Of a DNA stretch of 64,000 nucleotides, positions 45,001-48,000 are shown one piece after another. Positions within the stretch are counted from its first letter, which is position 1. The number at the start of each line of letters is the position of its first letter. Origin of the DNA: Candidatus Bathyarchaeia archaeon (GTDB lineage Archaea; Thermoproteota; Bathyarchaeia; TCS64). The stretch is from contig JBEKDF010000001.1 in NCBI GenBank assembly GCA_050014495.1, positions 32,001 to 96,000 of the forward strand, in the 5' to 3' direction. A program made the position numbers.

Positions 45001-48000
45001 CTCCTTTAACCTCCCGGACATAGTCGGCGTGAACGGTTATCGGCAGGCTAAAAGCCGCCTCCAAGATCTCGATTGTAACTTCCTCCTTGGAGGTATCCAC
45101 GCGCACCACTCTCGCCTGCATTCCCTTGAAGGGCCCAGCTACCACGTCCACAAGGGTGCCCTCAGCCAAGCCCTCAATTGCCGGCTTCGTCTCCAAGTAG
45201 TGCTCGACCTCTTGAGGCGAGACGGTTCCTTGGATGCGCTCCCTTGCGTATCGGACGCCCCGAATAAGCTCATCAACCATGTGAGGATTGACGCTTTCAA
45301 CGATTATGTAGCCCTTCAGCTCCGACGGCGCGAGTATGGCGAGTATAGCTATATGCTCGATCTTCGCCTTATCGGCTAGCATATCAGCTACTGTCCTCTC
45401 CTGGCCGTTTGTGACCTTCACCGCGTAAAGCTGGGTCTGGGGCATGTCTGGCACATCTGCCACGTCCGGTTGCACCGTAAGCGTAAGTGGATGGCTAATA
45501 TTAATATTGCTGAACCTAGAAAACGTAGCCACTTGGAATGGCTTATTTAACCGACTGGCTGCAGGACAACAGCGACGAGACGTATAATGTAACCGATAGC
45601 CCCGAGAATGACGATGCCTAGTAGCACAATCTTCATGCTTTGGCTGAAAGTTTTCCAGTCAGGCCTGTTGATCGTAACAAGAAGCCTTTTAGCGCTATCG
45701 ATGAATTCCCTAATTCCCATGAGCTATCGCCCTTTTGAGGGGTGCACTAGCTTTAAATTCTTTACGAATCTCCGAGGAGCTTCTCAGCGAACCAACCCGC
45801 ATCGAAGGGCTGTAGGTCATCGTATCCCTGCCCGACACCGATATAGATGATCGGTTTCCCCGTGAGAAAGCTCACACTAAGGCTAGATCCACCCTTAGCG
45901 TCTGCGTCCACCTTGGTGAGGATGACCGCGTCGAAGCCAACTGCCTTATTGAAGCTGAGGGCCTGCTCCGTCGCGTCGTTCCCGATGAGACTGTCAATGA
46001 TCATGATGGTAAGATCAGGCCCGACTACGCGTTTGATCTTCGTCAACTCGTCCATCAGGTTACGGTTCGTCTGCATCCTCCCAGCGGTGTCTATAAGGAC
46101 AGCGTCTACTCCCCTTGCCTTGGCATATTGGATGGTGTCATAGCCTACTGAAGCAGCGTCGCTGCCGTATTGATGCTTGATAACCTTGACGCCTAGACGC
46201 CTCGCATGCTCCTCGAGTTGCTCAATGGCCCCCGCACGGTATGTGTCCCCGGAGGCGATCACAACGCTGAAGCCGTTCTTCTGGAGTAGCCTTGTGACTT
46301 TGGCAATGCTCGTGGTCTTTCCTGTGCCGTTTATGCCTACAAACATAATGACATAGGGACGACCTTGACTCTTACTCTCCCCGACAGCTTTGACGACATC
46401 TACCCCCTTCCCTGTCTGCATTACAGACTCTATCGACTCCTTGAGCGCCTTCTTAACCAGGTCAGATTTGCTTCCAAATCGGTTAGCCTCCTCTCCCTTT
46501 AGGCGCTCCTTGAGCTCCTCGCAGACCTTCTCCGCGACCTGAACAGAGACATCGTTTCCTATGAGCTGCATCTGGAGGTCCCAGACTAGAGGTTCAAGGT
46601 CCTTCTCGGTTAAACCCGTCTTAGAAATCTTCTCAACTATGCCCTTGAGACCCTGTTTGAGCCTATCGAACATTGGCGGCCCCACCCTGAAGCTCGGCCG
46701 AGAGCCGATTCCCGACTTCCTGATGACTCTGCATCTGGGCTAGAACCTGCCCCAGCTGCTCTTCGACGGAGGCCAGTGTCTTCTCAACCTCCTCGAGACG
46801 TTTATTGACGTCATCAAGGGCCTTTGGGAGCTCCATCTCGATGGAGACATCAGCCCCGACGCCAACTATCACTTTATCAATAGGACCCATTTTGGCATGA
46901 ATGAACGCCGCGCCACCGATGGGTACAAGCATAGGTGTTTCAGGTTGCAGTGCCTTCATGTCGTTAAGGCTCTGCTGACTCACACTCAGCTCCGTCTGGA
47001 CGCTGGTGAGTATCTGGAGCCTTTGTTGAAGGACTTGTGCAGTACTCTCCATCATCTGTAACTCATATAGAATCCTACGTAGCTGGTCCTCTTTATTCTG
47101 GGAGGCCAAACTTCTACCCTACCTTCTCCGGCTGGACCTCTTCTACGCTGAAAATGGTTATCTGATTGCGTTTAGCACGATGGCGGCTACCCATCTCGGC
47201 GTAGACCCGCTCGACTGCGTGCTCCATCTTCACTGCTCTAATCTCCTGGTTGAAAGCCATAGGAACGAAGAACTTCTGCTTGTTTATCTCACCCTTTACA
47301 CGAAATACCTTGACATCGCTCATTCCTTCTTCTCAGCCTCCGTCTGCTTTACGTCCTCCGTCTCAGCCATTGTTATGGTGACCATTCCTTCGTCGTCCTT
47401 CGTCATCCTTACCCTAATCTTATGAGGCGGGCTCTTTATTCCCCTCGCCCAGATAGCCTCGTTGACGGTAGTATCGACGCTGATATCCTTCGCCTTCATG
47501 TGACGGACAGCGAACGCTTTGAGTACCATCATAGCTCTTTCGCTTCGCCTATACCTTTGGGCGTTCCATGCTTCCTTAAGAGGAACCGTATAGATGCGTT
47601 CCTGCTCAGACATGTTTCATCAGTCCTTGAGCTTCCTCGTACGCCATGCACGCACACTCTTTGGGCTCCAGCGTACTTTACCGTTGGTTTTTGCTATGAT
47701 CCAAGCTGGAACCGACCTACTGGACTTTCCCGCCTTTATTAGGCGAAGCTTATACGCTAGAGGCTTGTTCCTTGCCATCGTTAAACTCTCCTTATGCTAA
47801 TGTCCCTCTTCTTTTGTTGCCCCTCTATCTGGACGAGAAGCTTCTTCAGCTGGTCGTCCGTAATGGGGAGGGGAACCCTGCCTGTTTGTGCTAGCTGGAC
47901 TAGCTCGAGTTCGAGCTGCTTGCCGAACTCTTGGCGGACCATCTTTATATTTGCGAGTCTTTGCCGGGCCTCGGGAGTCAGTAGTCTACGCATCAGCGTC

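What a model noticed while it worked through the whole genome (the two positions that open the first line are those of the whole stretch)
46663..47778. Order-wide loss of the ribosome anti-association factor aIF6, with SBDS retained
The genome has no aIF6. In the conserved operon L39e-L31e-[aIF6]-LX-prefoldin (C1:78663-79778) L31e now abuts LX. The loss holds for all sampled genomes of order TCS64 while other Bathyarchaeia keep the gene; SBDS (g02403), whose known job is tied to IF6 release, stays, and Nmd3 is missing too, so this lineage matures 50S subunits without a factor thought common to archaea and eukaryotes.
Evidence so far: PF01912: 0/71 family genomes; 0/15 order genomes against 54/56 other Bathyarchaeia; rings in all 4 archaeal controls. 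aIF6 lies directly after L31e in 4 of 4 fetched relatives, before LX in 3; tblastn of 3 of them on genome.fa gives no hit at E<0.01. Control: the uncalled L37e gene is found in 12/12 order genomes, G000 included, by the same search. Nmd3 0/51 over cut-off class-wide.
(Added by a program. Inside this text positions count along the whole contig: contig position 32,001 is position 1 of the stretch shown here. "Call 12" and the like, gene names such as g00115 and contig names such as C1 are that model's own, and its searches are not shown. The text may have been shortened before it was handed on; [...] marks where a part breaks off. The agent that wrote the report below was given it as the finding of a first reader that could run no searches.)

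Follow-up and report, generated by a model that had tools for sequence, protein, structure and literature searches.

The report
Archaeal order lacking ribosome factor aIF6
A whole order of sediment archaea has cleanly deleted the gene for aIF6, a ribosome-guarding protein that is essential where tested in archaea, and the ribosomal proteins it normally grips have drifted at the contact sites, so these cells likely build and recycle ribosomes without it.

Summary
Confirmed. L31e (47320-47613) overlaps LX (47114-47323) by 4 bases, and contigs of four other runs bridge that junction. No aIF6 was found in 79 of 79 order genomes; 301 of 322 other class genomes and 296 of 299 phylum genomes outside the order have it. 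All 32 order loci inspected, from all four families, join L31e to LX.

New here: the docking site has drifted. In uL14's C-tail an alanine kept in 29/29 outgroup sequences survives in 2/31 order sequences. The eL24 lysine that touches eIF6 is replaced in 10/10 genomes of the largest family. A single-genome sister order also lacks aIF6.

Retaining SBDS (73/79) is no paradox, because archaeal SBDS does not release aIF6 in vitro and sits on idle 70S ribosomes. Nmd3 loss is class-wide, hence older. The order is not unique: only 76/201 genomes of a DPANN phylum carry aIF6. No replacement was found, but an unrelated one is not excluded. I found no report in print; this scan noted the same loss earlier on another genome (e1-9925348).

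The parts
47620..47778 (-). Ribosomal protein eL39 (L39e)
   Evidence: PF00832, E 3.9e-14
47320..47613 (-). Ribosomal protein eL31 (L31e); aIF6 follows it directly in 10 of 12 outgroup loci
   Evidence: PF01198, E 6e-16; synteny
47320..47323 (-). Deletion junction: ATGA overlap of the L31e stop and LX start, where relatives carry about 700 nt with aIF6
   Evidence: gap 683-859 nt in 8 outgroup loci versus 0-165 in 30 order loci; bridged in 4 of 4 runs
47114..47323 (-). Ribosomal protein eL20 (LX / L18Ae)
   Evidence: PF01775, E 1.4e-17
46663..47109 (-). Prefoldin alpha subunit
   Evidence: PF02996, E 2.1e-19
45762..46685 (-). FtsY (SRP receptor), downstream member of the same gene cluster
   Evidence: PF00448, PF02881
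47781..48119 (-). PDCD5-like DNA-binding protein, upstream member of the cluster
   Evidence: PF01984
48132..48587 (-). Ribosomal protein eS19, first gene of the cluster
   Evidence: PF01090

Best explanation
The aIF6 gene has been cut out of the S19e-PDCD5-L39e-L31e-[aIF6]-LX-prefoldin-FtsY cluster in every member of the order inspected, likely once in its ancestor, and its docking residues on uL14 and eL24 have changed, so these cells likely mature and recycle 50S subunits with no dedicated anti-association cap. Shown: no aIF6 homologue, the clean junction, the altered contact residues, and retention of full-length SBDS, one canonical EF-2, ABCE1, aIF1, aIF1A, aIF5B and an HflX-type GTPase. 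Inferred: subunits are kept apart from the 30S side (ABCE1 left on the split 30S, aIF1 and aIF1A), perhaps helped by HflX; EF-2 no longer has aIF6 to evict; SBDS is kept for an aIF6-independent job, most likely guarding the peptidyl-transferase centre and GTPase site of idle ribosomes. The loss may predate the order, since the single genome of its sister order (G003) also lacks aIF6.
For: Absence: 0 of 79 order genomes versus 301 of 322 other class genomes and 296 of 299 phylum genomes outside the order, with neighbours detected in 69-73 of 79. Junction in 32 of 32 order loci, all four families. The same search finds relocated aIF6 in 8 of 8 larger genomes (MGII-type, Promethearchaeota and one unnamed archaeon) where it is not beside L31e, so a mere move would be seen.

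uL14: human A133, A136 and G137 and the last 8 residues bind eIF6 (PMC8377010 passages; PMC9976893 passages). The A133 position is A in 29/29 outgroup and 2/31 order sequences. The G137 position is S in 25/29 versus R/K in 30/31. The tail holds the top-ranked of 110 windows for divergence. Tail-minus-body identity averages +0.06 outside and -0.21 inside the order.

eL24: the K2 position (contacts eIF6 D78; mapped) is K/R in 15/15 outgroup genomes and T/Q in 10/10 of family f1 (counted from the alignment). A weak replicate in the DPANN phylum runs the same way: A in 33/35 with aIF6, 21/35 without. Retained factors.
Against: All genomes are MAGs or unnamed assemblies; no ribosome, proteome or culture was examined. 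aIF6 could not be deleted in Haloferax volcanii (PMC3828320 passages), so some compensation is expected and none is shown. The new tail is not random (A at -5 and V at -1 in 31/31, R/K at -4 in 30/31), which could mean a new partner. R at -4 also occurs in 2 of 29 outgroup and 3 of 35 DPANN genomes that keep aIF6, and many eIF6 contacts are to the backbone, so the changes need not abolish binding. eL24 K2 is kept in families f2-f4 (4/4) and in G003, and A133 is kept in f2 and f4. The order is one clade, so these counts are one event. The DPANN replicate is weak (tail identity 0.60 versus 0.55).
Confidence: 0.62

Rival explanations
1. aIF6 is truly gone, but an unrelated protein now caps the 50S interface (non-homologous replacement, as RsfS does in bacteria), and the remodelled uL14 tail is its new docking site.
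For: The tail shifted to a new, partly fixed state (G at -8 in 25/31, R/K at -4 in 30/31). aIF6 is essential in Haloferax. No order-wide screen for clade-specific small proteins was possible.
Against: RsfS (PF02410) and HPF/HibA (PF02482) are not found in G000. Nothing was inserted at the junction. Positions -14, -11 and -10, invariant or nearly so outside the order, vary inside it, which fits relaxation better than a new fixed contact.
Confidence: 0.27
2. A real aIF6 persists elsewhere in these genomes but has diverged beyond profile detection.
For: The genome search uses a loose first look. G000 holds four pentein-fold proteins.
Against: Unfiltered six-frame searches of G000 with three profiles, one of them single-blade, find nothing. 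The four penteins match arginine deiminase/DDAH families and keep a C-terminal cysteine motif. DPANN aIF6 genes still score 1e-24 or better.
Confidence: 0.07
3. The absence is an assembly or binning artefact.
For: 21 of 322 other class genomes also lack a match, mostly through gaps.
Against: In those 21, L31e is missing too in 15 and lies at a contig end in 4. In the order both flanking genes are present and joined (32 of 32), single-contig G174 included, and four runs bridge the junction.
Confidence: 0.02

Closest known systems
a/eIF6 anti-association factor and its release (eukaryotic SBDS + EFL1; Sulfolobus aEF2, PMC8024482 abstract and introduction)
   Same: Same gene cluster as aIF6-bearing archaea. 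uL14, eL24, a single EF-2 and three-domain SBDS are all present.
   Different: aIF6 itself is absent and its contact residues have changed. PMC8481954 (passages) reports Tif6 and Sdo1 as consistently present in archaea; no Bathyarchaeia are mentioned in its main text.
EIF6 loss-of-function rescue of SBDS deficiency in Shwachman-Diamond syndrome (PMC8377010, abstract start and passages)
   Same: Weakening the eIF6-uL14 interface removes the need for a release step.
   Different: Here IF6 is lost outright while SBDS is kept intact, the opposite dependence.
Bacterial ribosomes, which lack IF6 and use IF3, RsfS and HflX (recalled, general knowledge)
   Same: No IF6; an HflX-type GTPase is present.
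   Different: No RsfS or HPF found; the ribosome is otherwise archaeal and keeps eL24 and SBDS.
DPANN phylum of G661 (Pacearchaeota locus L224)
   Same: aIF6 undetected in 125 of 201 genomes; 35 of 35 negatives tested carry uL14; weak drift of the same tail positions. PMC8407392 (passage) lists SDO1 but not IF6 among factors seen in all DPANN phyla.
   Different: Those genomes are mostly 0.5-2 Mb, the losses are patchy and completeness was not shown to me. This order has genomes up to 3.1 Mb and a uniform, clean deletion.

Membership tests
Archaea with the aIF6 pathway | An aIF6 gene (PF01912) in the genome | tested here: not met
   0 of 79; three further profiles on G000
Archaea with the aIF6 pathway | aIF6 between L31e and LX, or relocated | tested here: not met
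   L31e joined to LX in 32 of 32 loci; relocation detected in control lineages
Archaea with the aIF6 pathway | Conserved uL14 C-tail and eL24 K2 docking residues | tested here: inconclusive
   Changed in family f1, partly kept in f2-f4; binding not measured
Archaea with the aIF6 pathway | Full-length SBDS and canonical EF-2 | tested here: met
   SBDS_N in 73 of 79; three domains in G000; one EF-2 with the HRG loop
Bacterial-type anti-association (RsfS, HPF) | RsfS or HPF/RaiA-domain gene | tested here: not met
   G000 only: none
Archaea with an EF-2 paralogue (aEF-2p, PMC6143161) | A second EF-2 family gene | tested here: not met
   One EF-2 in G000; other order genomes not tested
Non-homologous replacement of aIF6 | An order-wide protein bound at the uL14 face of free 50S | not testable with these tools
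   Needs ribosomes or whole proteomes of several order genomes

The most novel reading that the evidence does not exclude
An ancient free-living archaeal clade (this order plus its sister) runs a stripped translation system without aIF6 and aEF1-beta, and has remodelled the intersubunit face of uL14 and eL24 so that 50S maturation and recycling use a different route, either IF6-free or through an undescribed cap protein. SBDS would then have an ancestral job that never depended on IF6.
Probability: 0.45. Interest if true: 0.8.

Novelty: new variant of a known kind. Interest (0 to 1): 0.66.

Why it matters
IF6 is described as shared by archaea and eukaryotes and could not be deleted in Haloferax. 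A lineage with ordinary-sized genomes that lost it is a natural knockout. It separates SBDS from IF6, which bears on the original job of the Shwachman-Diamond protein. It also supplies specific uL14 and eL24 substitutions that can be put into a model archaeon to ask what makes aIF6 essential. If the order is TCS64 (Wuzhiqiibiales), PMC10321748 (passages) dates its radiation at about 2.56 Ga, so the state would be old and stable. The DPANN result suggests aIF6 has been lost repeatedly, which matters if it is used as a completeness or phylogeny marker (its use as an archaeal marker gene is recalled, not checked).

Tried and rejected
Weak aIF6-like hit at C28:22999-23730: ribose-5-phosphate isomerase. 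Pentein-fold proteins of G000 as a disguised aIF6: deiminase/DDAH families. RsfS or HPF/HibA as a replacement: not found. Co-loss with an EF-2 paralogue as release factor: G000 has one EF-2; copy number across the class was not tested. Nmd3 as a linked loss: class-wide.

Loss in MGII-type or Asgard archaea, suggested by aIF6 missing beside L31e: rejected, the gene is elsewhere in 8 of 8. Second loss in genus g86 (0 of 3): left open. G170 has a broken operon and lacks LX too, but keeps the ancestral uL14 tail.

Expression: no RNA holder listed. No complex or structure prediction was run. Literature: searches (0 papers) gave no listing or passage reporting this loss. The library lacks most subscription papers. 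Only 3 text supplements of PMC7414124 were searchable (no hit); its gene presence tables, and the figures and supplements of PMC8407392 and PMC8481954, were not seen and may already show DPANN gaps.

Full report
Observation. The stretch 46663-47778 holds, on the minus strand, L39e, L31e, LX and prefoldin alpha, flanked by PDCD5 and S19e upstream and FtsY downstream. The L31e stop codon overlaps the LX start in ATGA at 47320-47323. Among the 12 best aIF6 loci from other Bathyarchaeia, aIF6 follows L31e in 10 and lies between L31e and LX in 8, adding 683-859 nt. Contigs from 4 of 4 laid public runs, none marked as a possible source, cross the junction with no insertion or joint.

Absence from the genome. 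G000 is 96% complete and 7.5% contaminated. PF01912 finds nothing at E<=10 while ringing in all 4 archaeal controls. Unfiltered six-frame searches gave best E 1.2 (11-sequence profile), 1.6 (48 sequences from several phyla) and 0.059 (single-blade repeat profile, on which 12 of 12 held-out aIF6 scored 1e-40 or better). The recurrent weak hit is ribose-5-phosphate isomerase. The four pentein-fold proteins belong to deiminase/DDAH families.

Spread. In a 401-genome class sample aIF6 was found in 301. All 79 genomes of the order were negative, against 21 of 322 others. The same 79 gave L31e in 72, uL14 in 69 and SBDS in 73. I inspected 32 of the 72 L31e loci (the 30 best-scoring, G000 among them, plus G006 and G048); all join L31e to LX, in all four families. 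The 25 closest loci of a separate scan agree, but may overlap those genomes. In a phylum sample at 85% completeness or more, 296 of 299 genomes outside the order have aIF6. Of the 21 other negatives, 15 lack L31e as well and 4 have it at a contig end. G170 (genus g86, 0 of 3) stays open. G003, the only genome of its order, 89% complete, lacks aIF6 and LX and has an inverted L31e. In a 927-column FastTree of seven proteins, built without the uL14 tail, G003 is sister to the order (support 0.985; order 0.996). The loss may therefore predate the order, on one genome's evidence.

Controls from other phyla. In MGII-type, Promethearchaeota and one unnamed locus aIF6 is missing beside L31e, yet it was found elsewhere in 8 of 8 genomes. 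Absence from the operon alone would thus prove nothing, and relocation is detectable. In the DPANN phylum of a Pacearchaeota locus only 76 of 201 genomes (80% completeness requested, values not shown) have aIF6 over cut-off, and 35 of 35 negatives tested have uL14. aIF6 is therefore probably lost often in DPANN, which removes the claim of uniqueness.

Docking site. In human structures eIF6 binds uL14 A133, A136 and G137 and eL24 K2 (PMC8377010, passages), and needs the last 8 residues of uL14 (PMC9976893, passages). I aligned 31 order uL14 sequences (the 30 best-scoring of 69, plus G000) with 29 outgroup sequences, one per family; G170 was dropped for unknown status. The A133 position is A in 29/29 outside and 2/31 inside (G 25, N 3, T 1). 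The G137 position is S in 25/29 outside and R/K in 30/31 inside. The 12-column windows over the tail rank first of 110 for divergence. Identity to the outgroup consensus, tail minus body, is +0.06 (range -0.17 to 0.27, 30 sequences with G170) outside and -0.21 (-0.36 to -0.04) inside. The three archaeal solved-structure sequences shown keep that alanine. The eL24 K2 position (mapped) is K/R in 15/15 outgroup genomes, T/Q in 10/10 of family f1, and K in 4/4 of f2-f4 and in G003. In the DPANN set the alanine is kept in 33/35 genomes with aIF6 and 21/35 without, and R/K at -4 occurs in 3/35 versus 11/35 (Fisher p 0.001 and 0.03, overstated by kinship). Against this reading: R at -4 occurs with aIF6 in 2 outgroup genomes, many contacts are to the backbone, the order is one event, and binding was not measured.

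Partners. SBDS is full length with three domains and sits between a proteasome alpha-like and exosome-like genes (identified from the sequences, not scanned). In Sulfolobus aEF2 alone releases aIF6 and aSBDS inhibits release (PMC8024482, abstract and introduction). In Pyrococcus aSBDS sits on idle 70S ribosomes (PMC13324472, passages). Its retention needs no aIF6. Nmd3 is over cut-off in 0/20 order, 0/32 other class and 10/20 other phylum genomes, so that loss is older. G000 keeps one canonical EF-2, ABCE1, aIF1, aIF5B, an HflX-type GTPase and aIF1A, and lacks RsfS and HPF/HibA.

Mechanism. Shown: deletion, altered contact residues and the retained factor set. Inferred: 50S subunits mature and recycle uncapped, premature joining is limited from the 30S side by ABCE1, aIF1 and aIF1A (their roles are general knowledge), and SBDS guards idle ribosomes. 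I put true loss at about 0.9, split 0.62 without and 0.27 with an unrelated replacement.

Novelty. aIF6 is reported as consistently present in archaea (PMC8481954, passages) and undeletable in Haloferax (PMC3828320, passages). Searches showed no report of this loss; the library is partial and DPANN presence tables were not seen. This scan recorded the same kind of loss before on another genome (e1-9925348); that note is not independent support. Lineage-specific loss of a translation factor is a known kind of event. This factor, in a clade with genomes up to 3.1 Mb and with matching drift of the ribosome surface, is a new variant. Interest 0.66.

Noticed in passing
G000, G075, G048, G006, G012, G003 (whole genomes): Elongation factor aEF1-beta (PF00736) not found in 5 of 5 order genomes or in G003, but found in 4 of 4 other class genomes: a second translation factor missing from the same clade.
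   Followed up: partly
G003:C2:22018-25221 (L047) and G003:C6: Single-genome order sister to this one: L31e inverted against L39e, no aIF6, LX or aEF1-beta match, uL14 tail changed at the same positions.
   Followed up: partly
phylum of G661 (G666-G865): aIF6 over cut-off in only 76 of 201 DPANN genomes, with weak matching drift of the uL14 tail.
   Followed up: partly
G170:C1:2831-6019 (L045); G272, G278: Genus g86 has no aIF6 or LX match (0 of 3); in G170 L31e is followed by CoA-transferase-like genes, but its uL14 tail is ancestral.
   Followed up: partly
G000:C2:40381-40569 and C1:99326-99511: Two similar aIF1A copies, one next to a Rio-type kinase motif; duplication or bin contamination.
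   Followed up: no
window 33749-36126: An MFS transporter gene on the opposite strand (34223-35413) interrupts the S12-S7 pair.
   Followed up: no
window 50431-52353: Short (640 aa) alanine-tRNA ligase matching NF002436 far better than the archaeal model TIGR03683; possibly a transferred form.
   Followed up: no
L040:1186-1608, L148-L152: Some members of genus g1 have L31e extended by about 45 C-terminal residues or a gap of that size before LX; no aIF6 similarity was detected there.
   Followed up: no
L165: A record titled as a bacterial MAG carries the order's S19e-to-FtsY cluster with the L31e-LX junction; probably a misbinned contig.
   Followed up: no
L177-L187, L217-L223, L227-L234: aIF6 has left the L31e operon but is kept elsewhere in MGII-type archaea and several Promethearchaeota.
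   Followed up: yes
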